The notes under the pieces are model-generated. The model ran no database searches. It was not told where the DNA came from and worked only from the letters and a program-made list of their open reading frames with translations. A stretch of 64,000 bases of DNA from Octopus vulgaris (lineage: Eukaryota). The position numbers and the translations under genes are program-made. Shown one piece after another: positions 738-59,026 of the stretch. Position 1 is the stretch's first letter; the number at the start of each line of letters is the position of its first letter. The stretch spans positions 26,040,001 through 26,104,000 of the forward strand of contig OX597818.1 in NCBI GenBank assembly GCA_951406725.2, in the 5' to 3' direction.

Positions 738-778
<41 letters not shown>

Positions 779-1397: not shown

Positions 1398-1448
<51 letters not shown>

Positions 1449-2316: not shown

Positions 2317-2348
<32 letters not shown>

Positions 2349-3303: not shown

Positions 3304-3369
<66 letters not shown>

Positions 3370-3436
3370 GAGTAACCATGAATCTCCTCTACAGCAAAAC
3401 ATCTGTTTTGGTCCTCATTCTCAATCATTCTCTCCT

Positions 3437-3492
<56 letters not shown>

Positions 3493-3627
3493 TCTCTCTC
3501 CTCTACAGTAAGATACCTGTTTCTGTCTGTGTTACATTATAACCTTTCATCGTCTAGCACAAGATCACCTCATCCAATGCCCCCTCTCCTCTCAAAGGAT
3601 CTTTGTCTTGCAAGTTACTTGGTGATC

Positions 3628-7200: not shown

Positions 7201-8154
7201 CTTCTTACAGTTCTATAATTAAATGATAACACTATTTAAATGTTTCAAACTTTGCATTTCAGAGGGAAAATGGGAATTCTTGTAGCAAATGCATAAGACC
7301 TGAAAAATTTATTAGCTGATAGTTTAATGGCATATAAGGCTAATTTAACATATTTTAATGCATATAGATTAATATATTTTTTCATAATTCTATAGAATTA
7401 TTGACAATATTATTCATAATGCCAGTACTATTTATTTGTGCACTTACTTAATCAGCCATGGTGTTTAAAGACTTCCAAGTCTTTAAAAATTCAATGAAAC
7501 CCTCTTTTTCCTATAGTAGGAAATTAACTATGCCATTGGTACTGATCTACTTATCTATAGAATTAGAGGAAAGATCTTTTAAAAATGTATCCTTTCTGTT
7601 TATAAGAAAATGAAATAGAAATGTTATTGATTAGAATCAAATCTCTTTACAACACAGTGCTAAAAGCAGTGAGCCATAAAATTACCTTACTAATAGTACT
7701 TAACAAGGATACTTACTATTGATATTTTCCACTAATAGCATATTTTTCATGCTTCAATTAATCTCACATTTTTTTAAAGCTTTTTTTCCATATTTCCTTC
7801 ATTCTGCATATATCTATTTTCAGCAATATAGTGCTACAAAAAACACACATTAAAACCAAAAAAATGAGCAAAATATATTCTAGTCAATATGTTATCTTCC
7901 AAACAGCAGCTTTATTCCTTCACAATATGTAAGCAGTAAAAGAAGGTTTCTCTAATTGAGACTAACTTGGAAAAGTTCTGAACATATTAATTTACTGAGT
8001 TATAGTTTATTCAGTTTCATACTGTGCAGTTGTTGTTAGTCGCTTTCACACTGACTTTAAATTGTTGTTGCTGAAGAAAGCAAATTGTTTTATCTGTGAG
8101 AAATGTAATTTTTTCTTGCCTTCATCTGTAGCTCCAGGAACTCATGCCAGACTA

Positions 8155-9020
8155 TTGATCATTTGCTTCTGATGCCATATTTTAAGAAGATTCCAACAGT
8201 ATTTTTGTATTTTGTTATATACTTTTCTATTAGTGGTGTTTTTGCATGAGAAAAATTATATAATAGTTAAGAAAAATACACCTTGTTTGTCAATTATAGA
8301 TTTTTAAAAAATTTTATCATTTTTCTCTAACCTCAAGTGAAAACATCATTTCCTTTTTTATTATTATTATAAGAAATTTGACCTTTTAAACAGAACAAAC
8401 CTATTGGATCTTACAAGTCACATACTTAATTCTTGCCTTTAGCTAAATATCTAAATTTTGATAGTTAATGTATTTCTGTTGTATTTCATGATCTAACAAA
8501 CATTACAGTATCAACTATTCAAGTGGAATTTCTTATAAACATTTTTTTTTTTTTTTATAGGAAATGCAAGTCATACATTTATAATTTATATGTAAGATAA
8601 GAAAATATATATTTTCTAATAAAATATTTAATGCACTGAAGTCATATACATTAGTAAATTTTACTTTTTAGTAAATTAATAAATTACAAGTTATTTCTTT
8701 AGCCAAAATCTAACAGAGTAAACAGCTTATTATGAGTGGATTGATCATTTTGCTTCTGATTCTATATTTTAAAATTCCAACAATATTTTTATATTTGGTC
8801 TTATATTTTTCTATTAGTGGTGTTTTTTATTTGGTTTTGTTTTGTTTTTTGTAAGAAAAAGTATATAATAGTTAAGAAAAATCATTTTGTTTGTCTGTTA
8901 TAAATATATTTTAAAATTTTAACTGTTAGTTGCATTTTGTCTCTCACCTGAAGTGAAAATATCACACTTTTCATAATTTAAAAATTTGACCTTTTAAACA
9001 GAACAATCCTATTGGACCTT
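8155..9020 (+). repeat. Diverged direct duplication (~270 bp x2)
   Basis: 8155-8413 and 8741-9021 are co-linear from ttgatcatt(t)tgcttctgat through cttttctattagtggtgttttt to gaccttttaaacagaacaa.cctattgga. Confidence 0.85.
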
Positions 9021-10092
9021 AGAGATTTTATAAGTCTTTGGGATTTTTCCACCTCCAGTTTTAAAACAATAGTTTGTTGGGAAAATTTAGTTGCTTCATA
9101 AACTGCATTGAAGCACTATATTGATGCTCCTTCACTGATTTATCAAAGGAATACATAAATACATTGTGGTTGTGTTTTTTTTCTATCATAATACAACCTA
9201 ATGATATTGTTTTTAACAAGCAACAAAAATAGCAGCCATATAGGTTAGAATTACTGGTATGCCGTCAAACATATTACTAAAAATCACAAATAGTAATAAG
9301 CTTAATGTAAAATAGTAAATAAATGTTTAATTCATGTCTAATTATCAAACAAGGCAATAAATTTTAATGCTTAACAACACCACAGCCGAACAACAATAAT
9401 AACAATAATCATAATAATAATGATGATGGCCTCTCCTGTAGAAGATGATGTGTGAGTGTTTAGCTTTTGCTAAACAACCTTCAAAAATGATTTGTTTATA
9501 GTGCTCAGATGTATAGCCTCAAATTAACATTGCCTGCACAAGTGTGCCACACATTAGTGTCAAAGTGATCATAGAGCAACATGAGATGAAGTGTTTTGTT
9601 CAAGAATACAATGTACCACCCAGTCTAGGAATTGAAACCATGATCTTGTGATCATGAGTGCAACACCCTAACTACTAGGCCATGCACCTGCATAATAATA
9701 ATGATGATAATAATAATAATACTAATAATAATATTAAGAGTAGAAAAGGAAAAAATACCAGGAGATGGCTCTGGCTAAAAAGTGGTGATCAGTGGGGTCA
9801 GACCAAGGTTTGATCAACCCTCATTGGGTCACCTGGATTAGATTGTATATTGCAAAATCCAGGGAGTCCAGGATGCAACATTGATGAAGTTTATAACAGG
9901 TATTTAAATACATAATTTACAAAAGCAAACAGTACAAAAATGGAAGGGAAAAAAAGTTAGAACAAGGAAATCAATAAATGAATAATTGAAATAGAGGCAT
10001 GCACACTCCCTCAGTGTGTATGCTAGCAAAAACTGGCGTTCTTTTAAAAATTTGAGACCCCCCACACACACTCACACACAACATGGTATGAA

Positions 10093-10483
10093 AGGTGTGA
10101 CTGTGTGGCAAGAAGCTTGCTTCCTGACCACATGGTTCCAGGTTCAGTCCCACTACATTGCACCTTGGGAAAGTGTCTTCTACTATAGATTTGGACTGAC
10201 CAAAGCCTTGAGAGTGGATTTGGCAGATGGAAACTGAATGAAGCTTATCATAGATGTGTGTGTGTGTGTGTCATTGTGTCTGTGTCCCCCATCACTACTT
10301 TACAACTGATGTTGGTGTGTTTATGTCCCTGTAACTTAGTGGTTCAGTAAAAGAAACTGATAGAATAAGTACTAAACTTTAAAAAAAGTCCTGGGGTTGA
10401 TTCATTCGACTAAAACCTTTCAAGGTAATACTCCAGTTTGACTGCAGTCAAATGACTAAAACAAGTAAAAGAATAAAAGAAAG
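10093..10483 (+). mobile_element. tRNA-derived SINE
   Basis: Head with B-box-like ggttcagtccc, a body shared with 42185-42560, 27457-27735, 61817-61950 and 1-103, and an (A3-4G)n tail. Confidence 0.75.
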
Positions 10484-11663
10484 AATATCAATGGATGATT
10501 TCAAGGTTGAGGCAGTGGAACAGCCAGGCTGTCTCCCAAGCATCAGCTGGTATTTCAGTGAGGCATAATACTAACAAAGCAAAATACTTTGTCAATAATC
10601 CAGCACCTTACCTACAAATTCAGCTATGGATGTAGTAATTCCTACCTTTGCCACAGCATTAAGGACATGTAATAGAGCATATGACTTGCAAATGGTGGCA
10701 TCTAATACAAAGCATTTGCTTCTAACTTTAGAACAATAGCTAAATCTACTAGACCTCTTCCCATCATCCCTGGACAGTTCCACTGATTCCAGAGTTGAGG
10801 GGATATTGACCATAGCTGGGGTTCATTTAATGTTTAGGTTTATCTTGTAGCAACTAATGTGACCCACATTCAGTTAACATGATAATTCATGAAGACTGCA
10901 GGGATCAAGGTGCTTATCACAGTAACACCTCATTCTCCCACACACACCAGCTTCGATCGACTCTGATGGTATTGAATTTATTCAGTCTAAGTAAGCCACT
11001 GATGTTTTTCTGAAGGCAAAATGTCATTTCAATCTTCAGAAAATTTAGCTCTCACAGAAATTTGGCAGCATCTCAAGTTTTGCTGAATACTGCTTTTCTT
11101 TGTTGAAATTTAGGGTACACTTTTAACTCTAAATACTCTTGTGTTTCAGTGAATACTGTTTTGTTTGTTTGTTTGTTTGTTTTTTAAGGTTTTCATGTTT
11201 TTTTTTTTATTTAAACCTTGACAAGTCAAATTGGCATAGAGATCAGAGCACCAGCAAGTTTACATTTTTATAATCCAAATCCTGCTTTGGTCGATATCGC
11301 TCTTTAATGTTCTGGAATCAAGACAATAAATCCTAGATCAGTTGAAAAGTGGTGGGGGCAAGTGCAATCTGAACATCCAATATGTCTAGGGGTTTCTTTT
11401 CTTTGCCAAGGAGCCCATTTATTTACATTAATTTTCCAATACCTCCATGCTTTTGAAAGGTCTGTCTGTTGAAGAAGCCAATTTTATTAACTAAGAACAA
11501 ACTCATCTTCTCAGTTTCATCTCTCAGCAGAAAGATATGTCACTGGATATGGTAGCTTTTTAAAATTTTGAACACAGCCATAGACTGCCAGTACTACTTA
11601 TGTAAAACCAGATTGGGAACAGTCAAGCTAATGGGATACTTGGTGTATAAAATACTGCTGAAT

Positions 11664-11877
11664 GATAATCTTCATCTCCAGCTTAACATGGATGTCTTGT
11701 TAGATCCTTTTATATAGGCATTTGGTGCATAAAAGCACACACACACAGATTGTTGCTACAATCTATGTGTGTGCTTTTATCCACCAAGTGCCTATATGAG
11801 AGGATCTCTCGAGGCTAGTAACACAGTATTCAGTGTTCTAACAATACGTCCATGTTAAGTTGGATATAAAGATTATC
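11664..11877. repeat. Foldback/palindromic MITE-like hairpin
   Basis: gataatcttcatctccagcttaacatgga... pairs with ...tccatgttaagttggatataaagattatc. Inner arms agatccttttatataggcatttggtgcataaaagcacac/gtgtgcttttatccaccaagtgcctatatgagaggatct. Apex near 11755. Confidence 0.85.
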
Positions 11878-12713
11878 TTTTGGTATTAATATTGCTTCCC
11901 TCATTAATAGTTATAATAATTACTGAATATATTAAAACATGGCAAACATTAGTATAGATCCAGCTCATTGTGAAAACTGTCTCTTCTTTATATATAAAAA
12001 AAAACTCTAAAATTAATTTACTAACATAATTACTACCATTTTCTTTTTTATCAAATCCCTTGATTAATTTCAATGTAAATTGAATAAGAATTTAAAATCT
12101 GAGTTTGAAATCAATCAGTTGATTGATCAGTCAGTAAAAAGAAGCAACATAATTGAAAGAAATACATTTATTACAAATGCTGTTTGTTCTAATGTATTTA
12201 TTTTAGTTTATTTTTTAAAAAATATCCTATGAGCATAGCAAGTCATTTCTCTATATGTTATCTCTTCTGATCATCAATGGCTAAGGCAAAAAATAGTCAT
12301 GATAAATTTCCTTCACACTTCAGACATTCATTTCAGTTTGTTTTTATTAAATCTTCTAAGTGTATCAACATGTATGTATGTGTGAGAAAGTGGGAGAGAG
12401 ATAGCACGCATTTTATGTGTGCATGTTTGTGCATCTACATATGTATATATTCTAAGTTTGGTACAAACCATTTATGTATGTTTATGTAAGAGTCGTTCAT
12501 AATCAATGTTTTTTTTTTAATCTTTTATTTGTTTCAGTCATTGCACTACAGCCATGCTGAGGCACCACCTTGAATGGGGTTTTAGTCAACAAATCAATCT
12601 CAGTATTTATTTTTTCAAGTGTGTTACTTATTTTATTGGTTTATGTTACTGACCCACTAATCTGTGGGGACAAAAGCAAACCAACACCAGTTGTCAAGCC
12701 GTGGTAAGGAGAA

Positions 12714-12755
<42 letters not shown>

Positions 12756-13614
12756 GATAAATAGATAGATATAAATATTTATGATGGGCTTCCATACAGT
12801 TTGTCTACCAAATTTCTTTACAAGGCATAAACCTAAAACTGTGGTTGCAAGGCAAGCTTCTTAATGGCACAGCCATGCCTATATATGTATATTTACATGC
12901 ATACACACACACACATACACACATACATTTATATAACTTACACATGCACACATATATTATATATATATATATATATACCTATAAGATTGTTGTTATTACA
13001 TCAATAAAAATTTGATGTGTACCATTGAATATATTTCTAAATAATAATTGATTATAATTTATGATCTGTTTCGAATTAATAATTTATGACTTACATAGTT
13101 CCAGTTATTAGTGAGAGAAATCACCTGCAATGTCCTCCCACTTTTCAACATTCATGAAAAGAGACTTCATAACTCCTTGTGGGGCAGGGTGTACAAACAC
13201 ACAGATATATATCCATTAACAGATGATAAAAGAACAGGAATTACATAACCACATTCATTACCTTACAACTGTTTCTGTTATAAGAAGCTTGCACTCAGAG
13301 CTGACTGTATGTGCAACTTCTTATATCTTCCCTAGAGCCATTTATATGAAGTGTATACTTATTGTAGAAAGCATTAAATTCATTGAGTTGGTGACATGCA
13401 CAATTATATATGTAATATAATACAGTTTGAGTCAGCAAAACCCTACCCAAATACTACTAATACATATATAAATATAATTTTTTTTAATTTTTAGAACTAG
13501 AATAAATTCATAGACTCTGTGTTTGTATGAAAGAGAGAGAATAAACAGACACCCACATATATATACATGTGTGTCCTTATATCCCATACATATGTACAGA
13601 AATACAGATACAGC

Positions 13615-13660
<46 letters not shown>

Positions 13661-14368
13661 CATGTGTGTTATCTGTGTAGAGACAGATAAACATTGATAT
13701 ACAGATGTACCTATACATATCTGTTTATACATCCACGTAATAAACACATATCTACACACAGATACACATACAAAAATACATCAATACCTATTTACAAATG
13801 CACACATAAGTACAAATTAGACAAGTAGACATAAACAAAACTAAATCAACTCAAAAAAGATACAAGAGAATAAAGACACAGATAGTTAATAGACATATGT
13901 CAAGGACAAATCCAACTATATATATCTATATATATTTACCACTTCTTGAAAAAGTTTATTTTTCTTGTGATGGCTTTTGTGTGAAACAGCTATTATTCTG
14001 TATGTAAACACCAAGAACATTCTCTATTTTCTCTCAATTCCTAAACTATTAACTTTCTATGAAAAAAATGCATGCACACATTCCCTGGATTTCCTCCAGA
14101 TTATAATTTATAAGTTACAGGTTATATCATGCAAGCAATTTCTAAAAAGAATGAAATATTTCTGTACATGTCTACCACCAACTAGAAATTGTAAGCACTC
14201 TATAATAAGTGAAAAGAGAATTTAGATATGTGAATTTTATGCATCTTTTTCCTCTTAATTTCTAATCTTGCTTCAAATCGTAAGAAGCTGACTATTTCCT
14301 TTGTAATAGCTGCTATCACTAGAGGGAACCATATGTATTTGAAAATTGAGATAAACTGAAAAGACCTA

Positions 14369-14438
<70 letters not shown>

Positions 14439-14457
14439 CACACTTATTTTTTTATCT

Positions 14458-14593
14458 ATTAATATTTAGCCAAAGTAACAGAGTGACTCAAGGATCAAGA
14501 GCTTCATGCATCAGCACTTATCAAGTTTGATAATTGCCAATGCATGAAACTCTCGGCCTCTGAGTCACTCTGTTACTTCTGTTAGATATTAAT
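14458..14593. repeat. Palindrome of two decayed hammerhead motifs pointing outward
   Basis: Plus strand: AGU-UUGAUAA-UUGC(caau)GCAU-GAAA-CUC..GAG-UC-ACU. Minus strand: UUGAUAA-GUGC(ugau)GCAU-GAAG-CUC..GAG-UC-ACUC. Confidence 0.65.
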
Positions 14594-14651
14594 TAAAATA
14601 TACATATACTCATATTTTGAGTTCTATTTTCCCTGTTTGCATCACCATACC

Positions 14652-14705
<54 letters not shown>

Positions 14706-14829
14706 CATCATCATTTAACATTTATGTTCCAAGCTGGCATGAGTGGGATGGGTTGACAGGATCTGATGAGCCCAAGGACTGCATTGTGCTCTATAGTGAT
14801 TTACTGTTGAAACTTGTTGAAATTTGTTA

Positions 14830-15900
14830 TCATGCGTGCTAAAATGTAGCTGTTCCAATATGGAAAGCTACACGAAGACTGCAGCGCAAAGACAGCTGTG
14901 GTGTTAAAAGCAAAAGAGATTGATATTGACTTGGAAGAAATTTTGAGGAGTGACAAGCTGATAAAGAAGGAGGGAGACACCATCAAGTTGGTCCCTCCGC
15001 AAGAGACTGTAAAAGAGAAAAGTGAGAAAATAGTGATTTATCACACTCAAGCAGTCGCCACTAACAAGATAGAGAGATTAACAGAAAAAGAAATTGAAGA
15101 ATGCTTAGGAGAAATTACAAAAAAAGCAAAGTGCATTGGCAGAGGAAAAAGATTCAGCACTGTGGAGGTGAGGTTTGCCACAAAGGAAGAGGATGCCTCA
15201 CATTCTACCACCATTCTGAGGACAGATAAGGTGGTGTTGTTACCCACATACAAGGGAAGGCGCAGTGGTAGAATTAGGATAGCAAGAGTGTCACCCGAGA
15301 TTAAAACTGAGTGGTTGGTGGCAGCTATCTGGCTGCAACCGAGGACAACCCAGAACTTGGACCAGTTGGAGAGACCAAAAGCTGAACTGGTGGGGATTCG
15401 GGGTTGAGATGTGGCTGTTTGCAACATTTCAGGACATCAAAGGGATCCCCTACCAGATTGAGATAGAGGAAGAAAAAACATTGAATGTAGTTGTGGAGGG
15501 ACGGAGACCAAATTGTTACATATGCGGTGTGAGGGGTCACGTGAAGACTCATTGCCCCTTGTTTGAGTGCACATATAGCGAGGTGGAGGAGAAGGAGTAG
15601 GGGAGGGAGATGGAGGAGAAATTACATACAAGGAAAGATAAAAATGAGGAGGATTGTACCCAGGAAGTTAAAGAGAAGGAAAAGAGTGAGGTGAAAGAAG
15701 CAAAGGAGAGTAGTGATGGGTTTGTCAGCCCCAAAAGAAGGAAAAGAACAAAGGCAAGGGAGCATTTAGCAGAACCCAAGAAGTCACAGAAAGGTAAGGA
15801 ATGACTTGAAGCCAAAAATACACAGGAGAGAGAGAGGAAAAAACAATAGAAGAAGAGTGCATATATAAGGGTTTCCTGGTAGTGTGTGGGAGAGTGCGGT
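14830..15900 (+). mobile_element. Degenerate retroelement ORF1 (gag-like, CCHC zinc knuckle), probably L1/Tx1-type
   Basis: ORFs 14898-15407 and 15409-15600 contain GRRPNCYICGVRGHVKTHC (CX2CX4HX4C), followed by a K/E-rich tail. Frameshifted, with no RT downstream. Confidence 0.7.
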
Positions 15901-16257
15901 TGCAGAGAGAAAATTGCAAACTGGAAGGGGCTAGTGAGAGTGAAGCCAAATACATGGTATAAATAACAGTGCCACAAGGAATGAATGAAGGACGACAACC
16001 GTTCTATTGTTTGAGAGAGAAGAAGACTTTATTTACAATGGGTACAAAGAGAGTGTGTATGAGTGCTAGCAAAGTGTTGTGTATGAATGCGTGTGCATAG
16101 TATTTGTGTCTGTGTGTTTGTGTGTGCAACAGAAGGTACAGATAAAGATGGATGTGTATAACAGAGAAAACAGAGCCTAAGATGAATCTCAGCATATTGA
16201 GTTAAGATGGAATGTTGTTTACCAGTTTGTAATTGAGGTACACGATAGCAAGAGTTC

Positions 16258-16947
16258 TATAACAAGATGTTGGGAGTCATGTGGCAGAGGCCGGTTACTA
16301 CACGTGTAGAAGTTGTGGCTATTATGCCGTGCCGAGTCTCTTGATACAGAAAGTTCTTCAGGTAGACTGTAACTGTTTTTCCTTGGTGAATATTCACAAA
16401 CATCGTGAGTTTAAACCTGGTCGATGTTGATGTGTACATATTTGAAGTTGACGGTGGGAATGACGACAATAGTGGAGATGACTTAAAGTTGAAGTACGAC
16501 GATGGTGATGAGAGTGGCGGAGATGGAGAACGTCCTGTCTGTCGCTGGTGTATAATAGCGTCTTCATGGCTGGAGCAGTAGCATGGCTGGCTGGCTGACT
16601 AGTAGTCTGTCACTCGAACTGGAACATGGCTGAGTAGTTCTGTGGTCAGTGACTAGACCTTAGAAGGTCTAAAGCCGAAAGACCTGGAATAGTGAATGCT
16701 GGCCTATATATAGGGTTAAAGTGGCTCAAACAGGGCATCTGAAACAGTGTCACAAGACCTTATCCAAAGGCCATGATTGGTTGGCTTAAACCCTGGTGCG
16801 AAATAAGTCGAAAGACAAACTGCGCCAAATGCCAACCAATCAGAGCAGTGGACACAACAGAGTCAAACTAGCCAAACATGGTTGTAATCTCAAATGAGAT
16901 CATTCCTAATGTGTCTCTCAAACAGTGAGGATATCAGATATGCTACA
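16258..16947 (-). mobile_element. Probable solo LTR (~690 bp)
   Basis: Minus strand runs TGTAGC...TGTTATA (decayed TG..CA). 4-bp TSD-like gttc/gttt, CCAAT boxes (ccaaccaatc), TATATATA at ~16705, CpG-rich relative to flanks. Confidence 0.6.
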
Positions 16948-19263
16948 GTTACTACTGCTGGGTGCCCTTACTAATGCCACCACCACTATTAAGGTTGCCA
17001 TGCAGGTAGCAAGACAGCAAGCCCCAAGGGTGGTAGGATCTTTATACTAAGGATTGAAGGGACACAGTATGATAGAAGGTAGGGTAAGAGCAGGTTCTTG
17101 AAGTAGAGTTGCATGATTACTCACATTTAGTGGGAAGAGGAGAGATTCATGAGTAGAAGCTAACAAGATTTGTGGTTTTTATTATAATACACACACCTCT
17201 TGTAGTAAATGGGTAGAGTTTAAGAATGATGACCAATGAATGGTGAGTTGAGGAAGGATAGTTGTTCAAACACTGTAGTAATGATAAAAGAGCTGAAAGA
17301 AGAAACAGTAAGTCTATGGGCCAGAGAGGTTGCAGTGTGTTGGTGAATAACTTGACGCTAATCATATGGTCTTCTTGTAGGTTGCATTCTAGGATGTGTG
17401 TGTGTGTGTGTGAGTGAGAGGTGGTAATAGAATGACCAAGCAACATAAATAGATGACTACAGTTTGAAGACTCCCTGGGCATTACTACTGAACTAGTCAC
17501 TTAAACAGTGTCCTATCTTGTCTATTCCAAAGTCTGTATTCAGGGAAGGTTGGAGGAAGTGCAATCAAAACAGTTGATCACATTGACCGTAGACTTAAGA
17601 CCTAGTAGGAGCATGGTATGGGAGATTAAAGGATAAGTGTAGCTTCTAAGCAGGAGTGAATGGAAGTTCTAGGTTGAATGTGAATCAGGGTGTATGCACT
17701 CCTGACCAGAATATCATATAGATATTTACAATTTTTTTAATAATAATAAAGGCTTGGAAATGATTGGAGCAATTATAGAAGTTTTATTTCAGATTATTAG
17801 TCTTATAAGTAAAGATCAATTTTTAAATGTTAATGTTCATTGGATTCTTATCTAAATTAAAGATAAGTAGCTGAATATATGTTATAGAAGAGTATGTTCA
17901 AATATTTTAGAGGATCCATGATATGGACTGCCATACTATTATTCTTCATGCCATGCCATAAAATAAGCAATGAGAATTTACCATTTGTACATATAAATTC
18001 AATCAGAGTACCTAAAGCTATCCTTATCCTCACATAAAACTGACAGACTGTGTATCTGGTTATTTTCTCAGTAATTTTTAAAAATCAAATTCCAAAAACA
18101 CTAATACTATTAAAAGTCAGTATTCAGGAATCTTGACAACTGGAACCATTGTATAATAAGTGCAGTACATATTTGATGATAATGATTATCTTGTCATCAT
18201 TTAGTAGATAGTTTCAACTACTATATTGATGTATATTCATTGATAATTTCAAACTAATTGAACAAAGAATGACTCTTGTAATGTAATCTGTTAGAGAACA
18301 ATATTCTTAATGCATAACTTGAGATGCTGCCATAAAAAGACATATTTGGGAAGTCTCGTTTTCAAAGCTCTAAGAAGCCATTGTCACTAAAAGGAAACAA
18401 TTAAATCCTGCAGCTGAGGTTTATTTTAAGAGATATCTAAAGTGGTCTGTAAGTGCTGAATATACAAAAAACTTGTTCTTTCTGGGGGTTTTTTGTTGGG
18501 GTTTTTTTGGGGGTTTTTTTTTGTCTTTCCATTTACCAATTATGTATTGGTAGAAAATATACCTGAGAAGTATCTCTGTATATCGGCTGGCCATGTTAAT
18601 GGCTTCCAAATTAATGTATATAGTTAATCAGTCTCTGATAACAATCTCCAGAATTGTTGGACACTTATTAACTACTTGGCTTTCTTGCAACTTAATTCTT
18701 TTTCTTTTTTATGAGAAATGTTTTGAATATTTAATCTCTTATAATGGAGACTAATTGTTTCCTGCCTGTAGTATTGATCTGGTTGGCACCATCTGATTTT
18801 TTTTTTTTTTTTTTCTTTTTTTGCTTGAGCTCGACAGTAATCTAATGATAGACATAAATAGATGTTTATCATATGTATTGACTCATTGTTGTCATCTTAT
18901 ATCAAAATTGACAGGCTGCTTTTAGTGATTTACTTTCTTTAAATTTCCAATTCTGTTTCTCATAGAGAATCATAGAGCTACTTTAAGATTGATACAGTGC
19001 AAGAGTAATGGAAATAATAAGCACCGAGAAATTGTAATCTTTGTACTCAAGCATTCAGTGTGTGTGTGTGTGTGTCCGCCCGTCCTTAAGAGTCGTCTGT
19101 TTGATTTAGTACTTCTCGAATTTCTCAAAGTGCATTTCTGAAGGAGTGCGAAAATTACAGAAATAAATTTCAAGGACTGTATACATACACACGAATACCA
19201 TTTTGTTTTGACACGCACAGAACAACAGCCAAAACTGAAATGGATGAGTATTAATTGTGTGCG

Positions 19264-19294
<31 letters not shown>

Positions 19295-19984
19295 GGGGTG
19301 GATTCTAGGTTTCAGTCAACTACGGAAAACCATTCTACAATCTTTCTGCTGAAACCCATGGACCGAGATTTGACAGCTCTAATCTCCGGGTACAAGTTTT
19401 CAACAGTGCAAGTTTACCAAGGGACATAACTCAGTATGGAAGTCATTCTGCGATACCAAGGGACGAAACTCTTGATTATGCGACATCTATTATATGAAAT
19501 GGTCATATAGTATATATAATTATGTATATACGTACTTGGTGTCTGTCGTCAGCATATAGGCATGGTAGCTTCTGTGCCGTTAATTATAATTGTATTCTAT
19601 ACAATTATATATCTCTATATATGAATTTTACATAAAAGGTTATTTATATGCTGGCCACTGATAAAATTCATTAATTTTAATGATTTTATCTTTTAATTAT
19701 GTTTATAGTGTGTGTGTATATATATAACGGGAAGGTTTACGAAAATAAACAAAATACGAAAGCAGGTGGAGTACAAACAAACAATTGTATTAGTATGGCG
19801 CTCATATATATATATATATATATATTTATTCACACACACAGCTTCACGCTCAAGCACATACACGTGTGTGTGATATACATGTATTGACATGGTGAAATAG
19901 ATGTTAAAATTAGTAGTGATGGAGGCCAAAAAGCATATTTTACTCAAACTGATAAAAACAAATACTATATTTTATTTATTACAG

Positions 19985-41055: not shown

Positions 41056-41494
41056 AGAACCAGCATCAATACCGATGTTTTTATGTGACACCTTGGTTTT
41101 CGGATATCAATTCTGTTGTGGTGGGTAGGTCTTCTTGAGTACAGCTATGCACTGCATATCTCAGTCCTCTGTCACCTCCTTCATAAGGCTCAGCATTTTG
41201 AGATTGGCTTTCAATAATTCATGTTTTTTCAAATTTTCAAGTCAATACTACACATTACTTTAGTAAGTCATTCCTTTCAATTTACTATTACTTTGGAATT
41301 TAAATAACTTCATGACTATTCATGTTAAATTAGGAAGAAAAATTTAAGATACATAGTTATTTCAAGTTGTTACTTAGATGGAAATAGGGTTAGTATACTT
41401 ATGTTTTGGTACATTGATTAACTAAGCTTACAACTGAATAGATGCTGCTTATGATGAATGTATTTAGGTAAGTGTCTTATCAAAGGCTTCATAT

Positions 41495-41880
41495 AATAAT
41501 AATAATGAAATTATTGTATACAGTGCCCAGGTGCACCACAACTTGTCAAAAGTGCATGTAAAGCATAAGCAGTAGTGTACAAATGTCTGAAAAGTGAACA
41601 GTGTATGAGTCAGATACATGCTTGTGTGTGTATGGAGGGGAGAAAATCAGGTGTAATGTTGGTGAAAATCAGGAAGCATGGAAGTTTTGAAGGATGCAGT
41701 GCTCTGACAATTAACAACTGGTGCCAGCAGTTTGTTCCATACTTCAGCAACTCTCAGCGTAAAAAAATGTCTCCAAAAGTCATGGGAGCTGTGCTGTTTT
41801 CTGACTTTGTAAACATGTCCATGGTTGTTAGACAGGTGGAGTTTGAAAAGGTGCTCAGAGTTATTGTTTGTAAGATAGTT
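41495..41880 (-). mobile_element. CR1/L2-type 3' tail fragment
   Basis: Close copy of 53155-53525, ending in (ATT)n on the minus strand. Confidence 0.8.
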
Positions 41881-43595
41881 ACCTCTTTCTAAAAATGTTC
41901 TTTAATAAGAAAGAACTACTTTTTAGATGTCCCTGTTAGGAAAAAGCAATTCAAGAAAATTCATAGAAAAGTCTAATTACTCACAAATTGTCACAATGAG
42001 GAGTGTTTCTGTTTTCAATTTTTAATATTTTTTAAAATTACACTAATTTTGATTGTTAATTTTGAAATATATTGACTCTAGAATTATTTTGAATAAGGTT
42101 TTCTTTGCATCATAGTACTGATGTCAACTAATCAATAGTTCTTTTTTATAATTCACTGATATATTGCCAATTGATTAACAAATTGTGTGGTAAGCTGTTT
42201 GCTTTCTAAACACGTGGTTCCAGATTCAGTCCTATTGTGTGGCATCTTGGGCAAGTGTCTTCTAGTACTGCTCCAGGTCAACCAAAGCCATGTGAGTGGA
42301 TTTGATTGACAGAAACTGAAAGAAGCCAGTCATATATATGTGTGTGTGCCTTTGTTTTCACCACCACCCCCTCGTTACTGCTTGATAACTGGTGTTGGTT
42401 TGTTTACATCCCCATAACTTAAAGGCTTGACAAAAGAGACCAACAGGATAAGCACCAGACTTTAAAAAAATATAAAAATATGTACTGGGGTTGATTTGTT
42501 TGATTAAATTCTTCAGGGTGATGCTACATCTAATGGTTGAAATAATTAAAAAATAAGATAAGTCATATTATCAACTATGAAGTTTTCTTGTAGACATGTA
42601 GTGTAACCATTTAATAATGGTTGAAACCCCACAGTAGCTTTTGTGAAATTTCAATGCATTTTATAGTTCCTCATCCCTTTACTCTTAAAAGAAAATTGAA
42701 CTTTGATCAATTGAATATCATTTAAGAGATGTGGAGATGTACATACGGTTAAGATAACTAACCACAAGACTCATATATCATAAATTATATCTTATATCTA
42801 TCTCTGTTTTTGTCACTGAGATGAATCTGTTTGTTTAAAGCTTCATAACTAAGAAGCCAATATTATTTGAAAGATGATATGTCTTATTTTTCTGACATGT
42901 TATAAATTATTACTCTTACTTTATCTTTTGCAAAGTTCAGTTTCTGAATTTTTTAGTTCTTTCACATTCTATTGACAAATGATAATGGCAACAAATAATT
43001 TCTTTCAATGAAGCAGTGTAAAGAAATTCCAGATATGTCTCTACATCAAAATATATATACAATTAGGATTCCTCACAATCTCTTATCATTCAATATGAGA
43101 AACGTTTAAATGCCAAATTACGAAAGAAAACAAAAACAGTTACTTTCTGCTATAACCATCACTTACAATACAGTCCATTTAATATGAATGTGCCAAAAAT
43201 GTCAACATTACAAAGGTTATGAGAAAGGTGGAAAATATATTATGAATTTATTTTTTGACACGTTTTGTTTTAAATTTTGTCATTCAATTTTTTTAAGTAC
43301 TTTATAATACAATTTCAATCAAACATTACAAGTGTGAAAAATATAAATGAGTCTTATATTGCTAAATGTTCATTCATTAAGTTGAAAACAGACATCATTT
43401 TTCAGCTGTGACCACCAATTTTATATGTGAATTGCACATTATTTCACTCTTGTAAAGTAATTTAATATTTAAATAAATTTGTTTAAATTTTCCAGTTATC
43501 ATAAAGAAAGGCTTTTCTATGAATTAATAAAAACAATGTTGCAACAAAAATATGGCCTCAATTTAATAAAGGAAATAACTTGTCTGAAGAAACAA

Positions 43596-46461: not shown

Positions 46462-47415
46462 AAATATAGAATTTAGTTAAATTTGAAGAATTCATTTGTA
46501 TAGTTTCCTTTTTATCCAAAATCACAAAGAGGATTAGTAGATAGACAAAGAACATGTTTTATCAACAACATCACAGTTGTAATATATATATATATATATA
46601 TATAAATGAGAAGATGGATTTGGTATTAAACTTTATTCTGTACATTTGTTTTAAACCATCCTGCTATTGTCCTTCATGTGTGGGACTCTGTTCAACATGT
46701 GTTGCTTCAATTTTGCAGTCTAGGTCTCATCAGGTACATTAATAAAATTGTGTCTCGTTTAAGATCTTGAGTGTTGGTTGCCACGTTATAATGCCCATCT
46801 AGCTAGGGAAAACTAGGTGGGCATATAACAACATAGCAGCTGACACTCAAGATCTTTAGTGAGACACAACTTCGTTGATGTAACTGATGAGACCCAGACT
46901 GCAAAATCAATACAACACATGTTGAATGGAGTCCCGTACATAAAGGACAATAGCAGGACCAGTCAAAATGAACATTGTACAGAATAAAGATCACTACCAA
47001 ATTTCTCATCACTTAATATAATTACCCTAACTGACACTGTGGAGTTCCTGAAGTAGATACCATAACTGCAGATGACAACTGGTAGCCTAAACTGTGCCAG
47101 TGCTTTACTCAACATTTAAATACACTAATCGACTTATACCTACTAGTCCAAAATATTTATTATTTATTATACACACACACGCACGCACGCATACAGATAA
47201 AATATGCATATCTGTATACTTGTCACCATCTCTGCCTCTTCTGACTGTCATCTTATCCAGAAAACCTCAAAATTTTATTAATGTACCTGATGAGACCTAG
47301 ACTGCAAAATTGAAGCAACACATGTTGAACAGAGTCCCACACATGAAGGTCAATAGCAGGATGGTTTAAAACAAATGTACAGAATAAAGTTTAATACCAA
47401 ATCCATCTTCTCATT

Positions 47416-47452
<37 letters not shown>

Positions 47453-47578
47453 ATATATTACAACTGTGATGTTGTTGATAAAACATGTTCTTTGTCTATC
47501 TACTAATCCTCTTTGTGATTTTGGATAAAAAGGAAACTATACAAATGAATTCTTCAAATTTAACTAAATTCTATATTT
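46462..47578. repeat. Near-perfect ~290-bp inverted duplication enclosing an older 400-bp foldback
   Basis: 46462-46749 is the reverse complement of 47271-47578 (one substitution seen, plus a (TA)n length difference). 46607-47008 is a diverged hairpin with apex ctag-ggaaaa-ctag at 46803-46816. Confidence 0.9.
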
Positions 47579-53125: not shown

Positions 53126-53166
<41 letters not shown>

Positions 53167-53893
53167 AATTATTGTATACAGTGCTCAGGTGCACCACAAC
53201 GTGCATATAAAGTATATGCAGTAATGTACAAATGTCTGGAAAGCGAACAATGTATGAGTCAGATACATGCTTGTGTGTGTATGGAGGGGAGAAAATCAGG
53301 TGGAGTGTTGGCGAATCTCAGGAAACATGGAAGTTTTGAAGGATGCAGTGCTCCGACAACTAACAACTGATGCCGGCAGTTTGTTCCATGCTTCAGCAAC
53401 TCTCAGCGTGAAAAAATGTTTCCTAAAGTCATGGGAGCTGTGCTGTTTTCTGACTTTGTAAATATGTCCACGGGTGTTAGATGGGTGGAGTTTGAAAAGG
53501 TGCTCAGAGTTATTGTTTGTAAGATGGTTAATAATTTTATGGGTGTCTGCCAAGTCAGCTGCTGTTCCAGTTGATCCAATCAATGGAACCGTCTGCTCAT
53601 GAAATTAACATGCAAGTGGCTGAGCACCCCACAGACACATGTACCCTTAACGTATTTCTCGGGGAGATTTAGCATGACACAGAGTGTGACAAGGCTAGTC
53701 CTTTGATGTACGGGTATTACAGAAACAGGGAAAGAATGAGAGAAAGTTGTGGTGAAAGAGTACAGCAGGGTTCGCCACCACCCCCTGCCAGAGCCTCATG
53801 GAGCTTTAGGTGTTTTTGCTCAATAAACAATGCCCAGTCTGGGAATCGAAACCGCGAGTCCGCTGCCCTAACCACTAGGCCATTGCACCTCCA
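53118..53893 (-). mobile_element. Composite SINE: tRNA-like head, conserved central domain, long CR1/L2-derived 3' tail
   Basis: Head gcaatggcctagtggttagggcagcggactcgcggtttcgattcc (A/B boxes). The tail translates SNTRGHIYKVRKQHSSHDFRKHFFTLRVAEAWNKLP and ends in (ATT)n. Confidence 0.75.
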
Positions 53894-54801: not shown

Positions 54802-55527
54802 CAAGAAGATTAATAAAGTATCTTTTCATAAATTGTAGTTGAGGTGTATTTCTAGTATTTTCAAACCCTACAAAATTCACATGTAGAAAACAGTAAAGAA
54901 AGCAAAATGACACATAAACATACTTAGAACATTCACAAGTAGTACAATGGGCCAACAGAAACAAACAACAATAGTGTAAAAGTAGTACGTGAAATTCGTC
55001 ACGAACTCTATTAGTCCTATCTGGGCACCAGTTCTCTCCACAATAAACTATGTAATATAACATAAAGTAACATATACCACACTCACAGACTATTTACACA
55101 ATGAAATTGAAATATTAAGTGCATGTCAACATAAAAAAAACACAGTTTGTTACTGCAGAAAGTTTCATCTATCATAATCCTTGACACAACAAAAACTCTT
55201 CTAAACACACAGGCATACAACTATTACAACATTCTAAAAATAAAAATAAAAATACAGAAAACGAAAATGATGAAAGAGTCCACTGTTGTTGTCATTGTCA
55301 AGTACTGTGAACCTGATGAACAACAAAGGAGCCTTTGTGTTGTCATTCAACCTGCTGGAAATAGCAACCAAACTTTCCTTAAATCACACTGATTATCTTA
55401 AAAAAAGAAGGAAGGATGTATTGGATACAAAGATGCATTATGTCTGAATGAAAGCTGGGATGGTCAAAATTGGAATCTCTTTGATCATATGTTTGCTCAA
55501 ACACGGCTGATCAGGGTCTTAACAACC

Positions 55528-57760
55528 AACAGAGTAAAGATTGTTTGCCAACATAACATGGTAGTCCTGTTTTAGGACGAATGTTGCTGTAATTTAACCT
55601 CAGGAGACATCGTCTCCAGCTGGCTATACGACACGGTCTGTGTCCTTATATTTTCGAATAAGGGAAATCTAGCACTCCAACTCAGCTCAAAAGAACATCT
55701 GTATATTGCAATTTCCAGGTTATTTCCCTTCATCAGCACAGAATAATTGTTCGGTTAGAGGTTTATTCTAGGCACAAGGCCTAAACACATAGAGAACATA
55801 CACAAATATGCAGGAACAAAAACACATAAAAGAATGAATGCAAAATGAATTAAATTACAAAGAAAATGAGATGGCCATCTCACTCCGAGATGAAACTGTG
55901 AATTCCTTTTTACTTTAAAACTTTACATTCTAAATAACAATTTCCAGCCCCGCTCTGAGGTGAAACCGCAATTCCCTTTTTGTTTTCACCTTACAATTTT
56001 AAAGGAAACGTTTTAAACTAATATTCATTCAATAGTTACAGGATTTACTTATTTTCCATTTTTTTTAAACAAAAACTTTAACCAAATGTTTTTCTGTCTT
56101 TCACAATCTTTAAAATAAATCACAACTTAGTACTTCATCTTCTCCTTTTCATCCACATCACCGAGGTGCAAGGTTGAACATCCACCTCCGGGCCCAGTGG
56201 ATTCACTTTTTCATAATGCCTTTCAATTTTGGAATTTTTAAAACTTTTAGGTGTCCTATTTCATTTAAAAATCTTGCTTCTGTTTGTGTTTTTTGCCTCT
56301 GTTTTTCTGTAATTCTTGGCTACCCTGTGATTGTGTGTATGTGTCCATGTTTTTGTGTGTCTGTGTTTAATTTGACTGTAATTCTGCATGTTTCATCTGT
56401 GTGTCTGTTTTTAGGTTTCCATAATTCTGAGTTATCTCGTTTCTGTTCGTCTATACTTCTGTGCTTTTGCATGTCTGTGTGTCTGAATGTTTCTGTACCT
56501 GTATGTCTTTACTGGTGATCCTACTGGTAAATCTTCCCCATTTCTCGTCATAGGTTGGGTTACTTCTTCCACTGCTTTGTACTTCGTCAATTCCACTATC
56601 ATTGGTGACTTCCTCCCATCTTTTTTCTTGCTTTCACCTCTAAAAAATTCCTTTCTTGTTCTGTTATCTGTTTTTGCTGTTTCTCCACCATTATATTCTC
56701 CTAAATACTCTCCTCTACAATTTCTACTGCTGCTCTAGGGCATTTCTTTCTCAAGTGCCCTGTTTCACCACATTCATAGTACTTGGGGGGGGGGAGTCTC
56801 CCCGTCAACATTATTTCCAGCTTTTCTTCATTTGATAGCTCTAAAGTTTCATGTCTTTCATTGATATTTTGGGCTCACTGCCCAAATTATCTCTAATCCG
56901 TAGCCCCATACTTCACTTGATGGGTTTGGCTTATCATGCCCATCTTCATGTTTTCATTTTCCTTCCTTATCTCCAAATAAAAAATTGCAGCTATTATCCA
57001 CTCTGGATCTATTCACGGTGGGATTCTTCCCACCATAATTCTTACAATTCTTTTGTCCAAACAGTTTGGTATCAAAGTTCATTTTTCTCCCTGTATCAGC
57101 CTGTTAGGTTTTTTCTGCCTCCTCTACAGATATAAAGGTTAACACTATAGACGCACATCTCTTCCTCTTGTAAAGAATGCTATGCTATCTCTTTCCTCTT
57201 GTAAAGAATGCTATGCTATCTCCTATAAGTTTTTCCAAAATTTCTTCTATTTCTTCCTGCGGCGCATGTTCAATTCTTCTATTTTTATTCACAATGTTCT
57301 AAATATGACTGTCTTCTTTTCTATTTTCACATTTTCCTCCTCTGGCAGGGTCATTTTTATATTTGACCCTTCCTTCTCTACCATACTACTATATTTCTTT
57401 ATCAGCTCTTTATTCCACTGTAACATCTGTTTCAACACACGTGGGTCTAAGGGAACTTGACCTCCAGTAGCTTCTGCATAACTTCTCATTTTTCTCAATT
57501 ATTCACTACCACCCAACAATGGTGGTTTTGTACAAAAAATTCTGCTAGATTTCTAAAAAAACAAAAAAAATTGTTCTGCCAAATTCCCGTTCAAAATATA
57601 TCATTTTCAAAGTGACAACTAGTCACTGATCTATAAATTAGAAAATTACTATTTTAAATATCACAACAAGAGATATTCAGCAACAGTACTTTGGAGTAAA
57701 GACTGTTTGCCAACATAACATGGCAGTCCTGGTTTAGGACGAATGTTGTTGTAATTTTCT
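55528..57760 (-). mobile_element. ORF1-only (CCHC) retroelement with terminal direct repeats, TSD and 3' hammerhead
   Basis: Direct repeats 55532-55594 and 57694-57756. taacaacca flanks both ends. Decayed ORF from 57498 (KEGSNIKMTLPEEE..KTVIFRT) to GRLP.KYYECGETGHLR..C near 56740-56805, homologous to the 14898 ORF. Confidence 0.7.
55699..55741 (-). ncRNA. Type I minimal hammerhead ribozyme (intact core)
   Basis: Minus strand reads CUGUG-CUGAUGA-AGGG(aaauaa)CCUG-GAAA-UUGCAA-UA^UACAG, with a 5-bp stem I, palindromic stem III and AUA triplet. Confidence 0.8.
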
Positions 57761-58145
57761 AACAACCACCAGATTCTGAATTTCTAACAAAACTTTTTAT
57801 TCATATTCCTTAAAATCTTTATTTCGATCTTTTTTTATAATTTATAATACCTAAAATTTGAAGGAAAAAATCAACAAAGTAAATATTTCATAAGCTTTAT
57901 TTCATTTTTGAAATAATATTCATTCATCTTTGTTACCCTCATAGTTTGAATAATATTATCCCTTTTCCACAGTAAAATTAACATTATAAAAATAATATAC
58001 TTTTCAAATAAGAAATATATTTATTGTAAGTTTTTAATGTAGTTCAATTCATAAAGTTCAAACAAATAATTAAATTTTGAAGTTCTACATTGAATTAAGA
58101 ACCAAAACAATATTATAACCAAAATTCTTAAGAAGCAAACACACA

Positions 58146-58600
58146 CTATGATGAAACAAAAGGACATAGAACATCTTTTATTCCATTTCTGAATGGTGTT
58201 TTGTCAACATTAATCCCAAGATTTTCAAGACGTTCAGAAGAAAGATGAGCATTATAGGGGCGCTTTGTGCCTGGGTTATTTTTATCATCAGCAACAATAT
58301 GTGACATGTCCAACCCAAAAATGTCAGCCATTGCAGTCATCATATCATATTTGGTCATGTTATCATTCCCACTCCAGTGGAACACACCAGATATTTTCTC
58401 TTGCTGGAAACACTTTTTTTCTGATATTAGCATAATCAGAGAAGCCAAGTCATCACAGTGGGTCGGGTAACGTCGTTCGTAATGAGAAGAGTGCGAAGTA
58501 ACACCAGAATTCAAAATACTTTTTAGTAAGATTGTTACAGCACTTTCTTCTAAGAATTCCACTTGACCATAAAGAATTGGAACTCTCAAGATAGCAAAGT
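58146..58600 (-). CDS. MAT2B: Methionine adenosyltransferase 2 subunit beta (RmlD-like SDR), terminal exon
   Basis: FAILRVPILYGQVEFLEESAVT...RYPTHCDDLA...GVFHWSGNDNMTKYDM...KRPYNAHLSSERLENLGI...TPFRNGIKDVL. Acceptor ttttccatttgcag, phase 1. AATAAA signals on the minus strand at 58020-58025 and ~57900. Confidence 0.93.
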
Positions 58601-59026
58601 CTGCAAATGGAAAATAATCATGAAAGTTGACTTTTAAACATAAGCAAAAAAAGATATGTATGGTCATACTTAACCAAAATCTGGCGTCTCATGTCTCTCC
58701 ACGAAGAGACATGAGATGCCAGAATTTTCTTTCGTGGCGTAAAGAGGTGGTAAGAGTACATGAAGTTAGGCACTTGCTTCTGGAAATAGTCCAGGCACAG
58801 TAGACGAGTTTGAGTTATTCTGTTTCAAATACCTAATGACCTAACAACAAAAAAGGCCAGCCATTGCCAATCGATAATTGAACCCATCCTAACAAAAATG
58901 TTTAGAATGTATAATGGCAGATTTTATATTTACTGTTTCTCTTCAGACACATTATTCTTGTGCACATTCTTTTTCAACTGCATGTATGTTAAACTAGATT
59001 ATTATCTAAGCTTTGGAAAAAGATTA

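What the first reader, a model, noticed from the sequence alone, without database searches (positions are those of the whole stretch)
55519..57770. RT-less zinc-knuckle-ORF element with terminal direct repeats and its own hammerhead ribozyme
Seen in sequence: a ~2.2-kb minus-strand unit bounded by taacaacca on both sides (TSD-like). It has ~63-bp direct repeats at both ends (55532-55594 and 57694-57756; the GUCCU/AGGAC hairpin stem is identical while the loop varies). It contains one decayed gag/ORF1-like CCHC frame, no RT or endonuclease, and an intact hammerhead about 105 nt upstream of the 3' repeat. Established: hammerheads occur in Penelope-like pLTRs and non-coding retrozymes, while CCHC ORF1s are typical of L1/Tx1-type LINEs. 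Inference: this combination may be a distinct non-autonomous retroelement class, i.e. a protein-coding retrozyme-like element whose RNA is ribozyme-processed.
Basis: partly seen in the sequence, partly recalled or inferred. Interest (0 to 1): 0.8.

Follow-up and report, generated by a model that had tools for sequence, protein, structure and literature searches.

The report
Octopus retrozyme with nested ORF1-only passenger
The 2.2-kb unit is real but looks like two known kinds of jumping DNA stacked together in an octopus genome: an abundant 350-base element that owns the self-cutting hammerhead RNA motif and the end repeats, and a decayed gene for an RNA-binding retrotransposon protein that probably jumped into one copy of it.

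Summary
Observation confirmed with corrections: 64-nt direct repeats (60/64), a 14-bp target duplication (13/14, not 9 bp), a type I hammerhead core with a non-standard 10.1/11.1 position, a decayed ORF, no RT. All 17 named homologues are Octopus proteins; a homologue folds as two RRM-like domains plus one CCHC knuckle, i.e. a type I LINE ORF1, not Gag. Public assemblies split the unit in two. The outer parts lie at hundreds to >10,000 times single-copy depth, the 1,813-bp interior at about 13-90 times, and 22 contigs in four runs join the outer parts directly. The joined 349-nt monomer has the size, GC content, fold and head-to-tail junction of an animal non-LTR retrozyme, and family majority bases repair hammerhead stem I to 12/12 Watson-Crick pairs. 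The interior ends in AATAAA exactly at the junction and paralogous contigs stop at both junctions, so it is most likely a separate ORF1-only (HAL1-like) L1/Tx1 derivative nested in one retrozyme copy (0.6). A propagating protein-coding retrozyme is not excluded (0.2); no assembly was available to test it.

The parts
55520..55533 (.). Left target-site duplication copy (14 bp; last 2 nt overlap the element's 3' end)
   Evidence: 13/14 match to 57760-57773
57760..57773 (.). Right target-site duplication copy
55532..55595 (-). 3' copy of the 64-nt terminal redundancy (pseudo-LTR), two adjacent hairpins
   Evidence: about 8,000-12,000x summed contig depth at 57703
57694..57757 (-). 5' copy of the 64-nt terminal redundancy
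55596..55762 (-). 3' outer part of the short hammerhead element (retrozyme-like)
   Evidence: 270-18,000x summed depth; joined directly to 57576 in contigs of 4 of 4 runs
55691..55751 (-). Type I hammerhead: stem I 55751-55737 with 55703-55691, CUGAUGA 55736-55730, short stem II, extra purine, GAAA 55715-55712, 6-nt palindromic loop III in this copy, predicted cleavage after 55704
   Evidence: majority bases of other copies turn 3 imperfect stem I pairs into Watson-Crick pairs
57576..57693 (-). 5' outer part of the short hammerhead element
   Evidence: 1,200-1,700x summed depth at 57602
55763..57575 (-). 1,813-bp interior: ORF1-only (HAL1-like) L1/Tx1-type passenger
   Evidence: 13-88x summed depth at five sampled positions; skipped by short-form contigs; paralogous contigs end at 55760-55762 and 57571-57575
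57490..57575 (-). T-run-rich 86-nt leader of the passenger
56135..57489 (-). Decayed ORF1: N-terminal segment, two RRM-like domains, one CCHC knuckle (about 56740-56780), charged linker, C-terminal segment
   Evidence: tblastn with intact homologues E down to 2.5e-31 over the first ~250 residues; model of homologue P0008; C-terminal likeness to P0008/P0025 seen by eye
57162..57222 (.). 31-nt tandem duplication inside the ORF
   Evidence: D3, 30 nt identical, spacing 31
55763..56134 (-). 3' UTR of the passenger, T/GT-rich towards its end, ending in AATAAA at 55767-55762
   Evidence: the only AATAAA on this strand between 57284 and 55500

Best explanation
Two elements, one inside the other. (1) Outer: a solo copy (one 349-353-nt monomer plus 64 nt of terminal redundancy) of an abundant octopus non-LTR retrozyme-like family. 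Inferred life cycle, from the published model: tandem copies are transcribed, the type I hammerheads cut (probably as dimers, loop III being minimal), the monomer may circularise, and a Penelope-like RT-endonuclease copies slightly more than one unit into a staggered cut, leaving the pseudo-LTR, a 14-bp duplication with 2-nt microhomology and no poly(A). (2) Inner: a complete ORF1-only L1/Tx1-type element (leader, RRM-RRM-CCHC ORF1, 3' UTR, AATAAA; some tens of copies), mobilised in trans by an L1/Tx1 ORF2, that inserted once into this retrozyme copy without duplicating the target. Both have since decayed; this copy has one hammerhead only and a broken ORF, so it is a fossil, roughly 9 My old (range 2-24). 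Shown: the anatomy, the ORF-less joined form, the depth contrast, the stem I repair, the ORF fold. Inferred: cleavage, circles, the mobilising enzymes, the order of events.
For: Short form: 5 of the 15 joints shown (of 222) join 55760-55763 to 57576-57594, in 8, 9, 3 and 2 contigs of runs X2, X4, X6, X9; 11 of these contigs join 55762 to 57576 with nothing between, and 28 X6 records run from 55762 into 5'-part sequence. Summed depth over single-copy flank: 268-17,997 at five outer positions against 13-88 at five interior positions (the tool warns this is no true copy number). Head-to-tail junction 57722->55571 with 71 and 64 letters on the shorter side in one contig each of X2 and X4. Monomer 349 nt, 37% GC, circular fold z=-4.3, against 19 of 20 control stretches above -1.8 (one at -7.2); mussel retrozymes are 350-390 bp and <45% GC (PMC7229834). 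Majority bases at 55693, 55696, 55703 repair stem I to 12/12. Passenger termini: AATAAA at the junction (0.0013 per position); contigs with the non-window base at 55795 (20, 19, 14 contigs) and 55828 (7, 11, 11) have from_end 34 and 68, i.e. a stop at 55760-55761 in all three DNA runs; at 57531 (12, 15, 13 contigs) from_end 40, 40, 44, i.e. 57571-57575; a 13%-diverged X4 contig stops aligning at 55762 with 2 letters left over, whereas this locus's own contigs cross to 55730 and 55734. A second ORF1 homologue at +14859 has no hammerhead or outer-part likeness within 13500-19500. ORF fold: tandem-RRM proteins fill the top Foldseek ranks, E 1e-4; two ferredoxin-like domains 60-142 and 142-225, Z 6.4-8.5; Atlas neighbours are ZCCHC3-, DUF4283- and CCHC-type clusters.
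Against: No target duplication and no poly(A) run flank the interior, which a standard L1/Tx1 insertion usually leaves (truncated or unaltered targets do occur, PMC4494074). A random insertion lands in the short element with probability only about 1e-4 to 2e-3, so a one-off nesting is a priori unlikely without targeting. The from_end values may come from one paralogue shared by the three species, the tool does not define them fully, and the 5' stop lies beside a homopolymer. One X6 contig has from_end 117 at 57543 and so may cross the 5' junction (possibly this locus's orthologue). The AATAAA clue was found after looking. 613 variant rows, 207 joints and 2,172 loose ends were not shown. The second ORF1 copy is a distant subfamily and is cut by another sequence at about 16130. 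Hammerhead activity is unproven: the 10.1/11.1 pair is broken, Rfam misses it, and the majority base at 55710 breaks the loop III palindrome unless a partner change is among the hidden rows. No autonomous Penelope-like or Tx1 partner was found.
Confidence: 0.6

Rival explanations
1. The 2.2-kb composite is itself a replicating unit: a protein-coding retrozyme (about 2,160-nt hammerhead-processed monomer carrying an ORF1 RNA chaperone), either after capturing the ORF1 element once or as the parent from which the 350-nt form arose by internal deletion.
For: Same orientation of all parts; low prior for random nesting; no TSD or poly(A) around the interior; interior depth of tens of copies would fit a small family; repeat divergence and ORF decay look of similar age; a CCHC ORF upstream of a hammerhead-bearing PLE has a precedent (Chlamys-2_cBra, PMC8557442).
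Against: Paralogous contigs stop at both junctions rather than about 30 nt beyond; AATAAA at the junction; no paralogous contig crossing the 3' junction among the rows shown; the other ORF1 homologue in the window has no hammerhead.
Confidence: 0.2
2. The passenger is a target-specific Tx1-type derivative that inserts repeatedly at this one site of the retrozyme. ORF, hammerhead and repeats would co-occur in many loci, but each time by a new insertion.
For: Removes the low prior of random nesting; Tx1-clade elements and their dependants target repeats, including other transposons (SINEU-3: 313 of 347 flanked by Mariner-N4_AMi; PMC4494074 passages); variable A tails would also break contigs at 55761.
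Against: No paralogous contig seen continuing into the hammerhead part; no TSD; no autonomous partner known.
Confidence: 0.12
3. The outer element is not a cleaving retrozyme but a SINE-like or truncated tail of a PLE/LINE whose hammerhead is an inactive relic; the 64-nt two-hairpin repeat is the RT-recognition tail.
For: Depth at the repeat and the adjacent 60 nt is 10-40 times that at the hammerhead, as for 5'-truncated copies; broken 10.1/11.1 pair; only one head-to-tail contig per run among the rows shown.
Against: Stem I is perfectly paired in the family majority; the same core variant occurs in the unrelated hammerhead at 1031, which argues for a lineage variant; monomer size and fold fit retrozymes.
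Confidence: 0.08

Closest known systems
Metazoan non-LTR retrozymes (Cervera and de la Pena 2020, PMC7229834, passages and sections 14, 17 read; Li, Clavereau and Pollet 2026, bioRxiv 10.64898/2026.07.22.740005, first fifth and passages read)
   Same: Type I hammerhead, ORF-less monomer of about 350 nt, low GC, self-paired circle, head-to-tail junction, solo copies, PLEs present in the host genus (PMC13282606).
   Different: Extra purine before GAAA; this copy is interrupted by a 1.8-kb ORF1 segment; no octopus or cephalopod retrozyme was found in print; cleavage and circles untested.
Hammerheads in PLE pseudo-LTRs (Cervera and de la Pena 2014, PMC4209133, parts 1-2 of 4 read)
   Same: Extra nucleotide after A9, minimal palindromic helix III, more-than-unit copies giving terminal direct repeats.
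   Different: The paper reports a highly conserved G10.1-C11.1 pair, absent here; no RT/GIY-YIG ORF; the upstream repeat is too short to hold a second hammerhead.
HAL1 (half-L1), ORF1-only non-autonomous L1 derivatives (Kojima 2018, PMC5753468, passages read)
   Same: Only ORF1, leader and 3' UTR ending at a polyadenylation signal.
   Different: Type I (RRM+CCHC) ORF1 as in Tx1/plant L1 (PMC5203782 passages), where mammalian L1 has type II; no poly(A) tail or TSD here; octopus host; parent LINE not identified.
Drosophila HeT-A (PMC5537684, passages read)
   Same: Non-autonomous, lacks pol, keeps the structural ORF; tandem copies give an LTR-like unit.
   Different: Telomere-restricted with oligo(A) end; no hammerhead mentioned in the passages read.
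Chlamys-2_cBra (Craig et al. 2021, PMC8557442, passages read)
   Same: PLE with a 3' hammerhead and an upstream zf-CCHC ORF: shows the combination is not unprecedented.
   Different: Autonomous, with RT; charophyte alga; homology of its CCHC ORF to this one not tested.

Membership tests
Non-LTR retrozyme (outer element) | Type I hammerhead core C3-A9, G12-A15, U16-H17 with stems I-III | tested here: met
   0 hits in 100 shuffles
Non-LTR retrozyme (outer element) | Paired 10.1-11.1 at the base of stem II | tested here: not met
   G precedes GAAA here and at 1031; family majority at 55716 is not among the rows shown. Lowers membership; natural mispairs here exist (PMC3088659, U-U)
Non-LTR retrozyme (outer element) | ORF-less monomer of about 170-400 nt, GC under 45% | tested here: met
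   joined form in 4 of 4 runs; 349 nt, 37% GC
Non-LTR retrozyme (outer element) | Tandem copies with a hammerhead in at least two consecutive units | tested here: inconclusive
   one head-to-tail junction contig each in X2 and X4; no contig with two hammerheads shown; this locus has one
Non-LTR retrozyme (outer element) | Self-cleavage and circular RNA in vivo | not testable with these tools
   only contigs, no raw RNA reads laid
Autonomous Penelope-like element | RT with or without GIY-YIG ORF between pLTRs | tested here: not met
   the unit is filled by ORF1 and short UTRs
HAL1-like ORF1-only L1/Tx1 derivative (interior) | LINE ORF1 of type I (RRM + CCHC) | tested here: met
   (zf-CCHC in 18 of 25 homologues at E<=5); fold shown on homologue P0008, not on the broken copy
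HAL1-like ORF1-only L1/Tx1 derivative (interior) | No ORF2 | tested here: met
   367 nt between ORF end and junction
HAL1-like ORF1-only L1/Tx1 derivative (interior) | Poly(A) tail and own TSD | tested here: not met
   AATAAA present, no A run, no fitting TSD; so 'HAL1-like', not filed as HAL1
HAL1-like ORF1-only L1/Tx1 derivative (interior) | 5' and 3' ends shared with an autonomous L1/Tx1 family | not testable with these tools
   no assembly, no Repbase/Dfam; no fused long homologue among 5,512 candidates of 1092-3115 aa (weak)
HAL1-like ORF1-only L1/Tx1 derivative (interior) | Multiple dispersed copies with own termini | tested here: inconclusive
   13-88x depth; contig stops at both junctions, indirect
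LTR element / TRIM / retroviral Gag | TG...CA LTRs, 4-6 bp TSD, capsid fold (criteria recalled) | tested here: not met
   repeat ends are not TG...CA, TSD 14 bp; model is RRM-like, only the knuckle matches nucleocapsids

The most novel reading that the evidence does not exclude
The 2.2-kb composite replicates as one unit: a hammerhead-processed, roughly 2.1-kb circular-RNA retroelement of octopuses that carries a LINE-type ORF1 RNA chaperone, is copied by a Penelope-like RT, and is the coding parent or sibling of a 350-nt retrozyme with thousands of copies. That would be a protein-coding retrozyme, joining LINE and PLE machinery.
Probability: 0.2. Interest if true: 0.75.

Novelty: new member of a known kind. 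Interest (0 to 1): 0.32.

Why it matters
On the likeliest reading the gain is modest: an apparently unreported, very abundant octopus retrozyme-like family with a variant hammerhead core (extra purine before GAAA, seen in two unrelated motifs here and missed by Rfam), and an ORF1-only LINE derivative in a mollusc. Both are testable and may sit among the 893 'unclassified SINE' families of the 2026 O. vulgaris annotation (PMC13282606; library not seen). If the composite proves to be a propagating unit, retrozymes would no longer be strictly non-coding, and a LINE ORF1 working with a PLE-type RT would be a new arrangement.

Tried and rejected
No whole genome is held, so the genome-wide copy test was not possible. 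Rfam: no hammerhead, twister, pistol or HDV hit; the 64-nt repeat was considered as a second ribozyme and dropped. Window self-BLAST: no second copy of the short element in 64 kb. A 20-nt pattern from the repeat: 0 hits in metagenome, viral and prokaryote contigs. The search for related loci: two alignments not usable; P0007 alone gave 105 pattern matches, none confirmed. Fusion to ORF2: none among long proteins, weak. Pfam on long stop-masked frames around both ORF copies: 0 of 12, insensitive. Atlas search of the C-terminal segment: no usable hit. RNA: no RNA holder listed; run X9 is only guessed to be RNA, covers the outer parts and shows the short junction in 2 contigs but is no evidence of expression. 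Interior as an intron: ends are not GT-AG. The 8-mer at 57576-57569 and 55752-55745 as the passenger's TSD: does not fit the empty-site joints shown. LTR/TRIM, DIRS/Ngaro and Helentron readings rejected on the 14-bp TSD and repeat ends (criteria recalled). CUGAUGA motifs at +14763, +50148, +55313 fail the stem test. Earlier scan notes: nothing for this genome or sequence. Literature: searches in the open-access library showed no octopus retrozyme and no ORF1-bearing retrozyme; Repbase, Dfam, the Zenodo library and the supplement of PMC13282606 (listed, not read), and bioRxiv supplements were not seen and may hold these families. PMC9115989 passages had no mention of Penelope, Tx1 or hammerheads.
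Full report
Observation. The described parts are present. Two 64-nt direct repeats lie at 55532-55595 and 57694-57757 with 60 of 64 bases identical. The flanking 9-mer is part of a 14-bp duplication with one mismatch (55520-55533 and 57760-57773); its last two bases overlap the element's 3' end, a microhomology, and such a match arises in 50 of 2,000,000 random pairs. There is no poly(A) at the 3' end. On the minus strand a type I hammerhead core starts at 55736, with a 6-bp stem I extended by 6 more pairs after a 3x1 loop, a 3-bp stem II, and a palindromic 6-nt loop III. My descriptor finds this motif and one at 1031 in the window and none in 100 shuffles. Rfam finds neither. The base before GAAA is G in both motifs, so the 10.1-11.1 pair that PMC4209133 (parts 1-2 read) calls highly conserved in PLE hammerheads is broken. 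Two unrelated motifs sharing it suggests a lineage variant, but activity is unshown.

Host and ORF. Of 21 homologues looked up, 17 carry a name and all 17 are from Octopus vulgaris, O. bimaculoides or O. sinensis; the window is therefore probably octopus DNA (inference). The profile search gave 40 proteins at E<=0.001, some only through the knuckle; the best full-length ones cover the query at 27-36% identity. They align to 57489-56700 by tblastn (E to 2.5e-31), and a C-terminal motif of P0008 and P0025 is recognisable by eye down to about 56135. An AlphaFold model of homologue P0008 (mean pLDDT 71, high over residues 30-260) matches tandem-RRM proteins (Foldseek E 1e-4 but low TM-scores) and two ferredoxin-like domains (best Z 8.5, rmsd 2.3, 79 aligned; middling Z values are common). 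The ESM Atlas neighbours are CCHC, ZCCHC3-RBD and DUF4283 clusters. Only the knuckle matches nucleocapsids. RRM plus CCHC defines type I LINE ORF1, consistent with Tx1 in non-mammalian animals (PMC5203782 passages). It is not a Gag. L1-Tx1 and Penelope families are recently active in O. vulgaris (PMC13282606, parts 1-2 read).

The unit splits in two. No assembly was held, so I laid public contigs from four runs (three species labels) on 55100-58200. Summed depth relative to single-copy flank is 268-17,997 at five positions of the outer parts and 13-88 at five interior positions; the tool warns that this is not a copy number, so only the contrast is used. Five of the 15 joints shown (of 222) connect 55760-55763 to 57576-57594, in 22 contigs over all four runs, 11 of them with nothing between 55762 and 57576. 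So an ORF-less short element exists and is far more common than the ORF. One contig each in X2 and X4 runs from the 5' part through a single repeat into the 3' part, a head-to-tail junction. The joined monomer is 349 nt, 37% GC, and folds as a circle at z=-4.3 (19 of 20 controls above -1.8, one at -7.2). Mussel retrozymes are 350-390 bp with about 5,000 hammerheads (PMC7229834). Majority bases of other copies convert two G-U pairs and one mismatch of stem I into Watson-Crick pairs, 12 of 12, which shows that the family keeps the fold and this copy has drifted. A fourth majority base (55710) breaks the loop III palindrome unless a partner change is among the 613 rows not shown. Flank-element junction contigs occur in X2, X4 and X6, so the insertion is shared by three species labels; 4/64 repeat divergence gives about 9 My (2-24) at the rate quoted in PMC13282606.

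Does the ORF travel with the hammerhead? The evidence is indirect. For separate origin: the interior reads as leader, ORF1, T/GT-rich 3' UTR and AATAAA, the last exactly at the junction (0.0013 per position, but noticed after looking). Contigs carrying the non-window base at 55795 (20, 19, 14 contigs) and 55828 (7, 11, 11) have from_end values of 34 and 68 in all three DNA runs, pointing to 55760-55761; at 57531 (12, 15, 13 contigs) the values point to 57571-57575. A paralogous X4 contig with 39 differences stops aligning at 55762 with two letters left, while this locus's own contigs cross to 55730 and 55734. A second ORF1 homologue at +14859, 54% identical to P0011, has no hammerhead and no likeness to the outer parts within 13500-19500. 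Against: no TSD or A tail around the interior; a random insertion would hit the short element with probability about 1e-4 to 2e-3; the from_end values may reflect one shared paralogue; one X6 contig may cross the 5' junction; most rows were hidden; the second ORF1 copy is distant and truncated. Tx1-related elements can target other transposons, and targets can be truncated or unaltered (PMC4494074 passages), which keeps a targeting model alive.

Mechanism. Best reading (0.6): a Penelope-like RT-endonuclease copied a little more than one unit of a hammerhead-processed tandem or circular RNA into this site, the model proposed in PMC4209133 and PMC7229834 and supported by bioRxiv 10.64898/2026.07.22.740005; later an ORF1-only L1/Tx1 derivative inserted about 11 nt upstream of stem I. 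The anatomy is shown; cleavage, circles, enzymes and order are inferred. Rivals: a propagating composite (0.2), repeated site-specific insertion (0.12), an inactive tail-type SINE (0.08).

Comparison and novelty. The outer element works like a non-LTR retrozyme but fails one core feature and lacks proof of arrays, so I call it retrozyme-like. The interior works like HAL1 (ORF1-only, PMC5753468 passages) but lacks the tail and TSD, so it is HAL1-like. RT-less ORF1 elements with LTR-like tandem ends (HeT-A, PMC5537684 passages) and a CCHC ORF with a 3' hammerhead (Chlamys-2_cBra, PMC8557442 passages) are known. My searches showed no octopus retrozyme and no coding retrozyme in the open library; Repbase, Dfam and supplements were not seen. 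Verdict: new members of two known kinds, interest 0.32; the novel case stands at 0.2 and one BLAST against an Octopus assembly would settle it.

Noticed in passing
window 909-1404 (hammerhead core at 1031, minus strand): A second, unrelated type I hammerhead with a 7-bp stem II, palindromic loop III and the same extra purine before GAAA; its 3' side is repeated in inverted orientation (79 nt, 96%; 909-987 and 1326-1404), like a PLE inverted pseudo-LTR remnant.
   Followed up: partly
window 14859-16080 (+): Second decayed RRM-RRM-CCHC ORF1 homologue, 54% identical to P0011, no hammerhead nearby, cut at about 16130 by another sequence.
   Followed up: partly
window 58146-58688 (-): Open 180-codon frame with RmlD_sub_bind (E=1.4e-14; MAT2B-like by recall) ending about 370 nt upstream of the element on the same strand; read-through could transcribe the element.
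   Followed up: no
window 57576-57569 and 55752-55745 (-): The same 8-mer lies near both interior junctions; it does not fit the empty-site joints shown as a TSD and is unexplained.
   Followed up: partly
window 55308-55390: Another high-depth repeat fragment 130 bp from the element (about 200-350x flank depth, loose ends into an A-rich tail).
   Followed up: no
run X2, joints 57621->55590 and 55666/57650: One contig has telomere-type repeats between two parts of the short element; two contigs join the parts on opposite strands, as in PLE inverted arrangements.
   Followed up: no
window 55870-55990 (-): Two imperfect copies of a roughly 45-nt motif in the passenger's 3' UTR, seen by eye.
   Followed up: no
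window 41493-41881 and 53151-53530; 46462-46752 and 47268-47578: A 389-bp inverted pair (90%) 11 kb apart and a 300-bp inverted pair (93%) 500 bp apart, from the self-BLAST.
   Followed up: no
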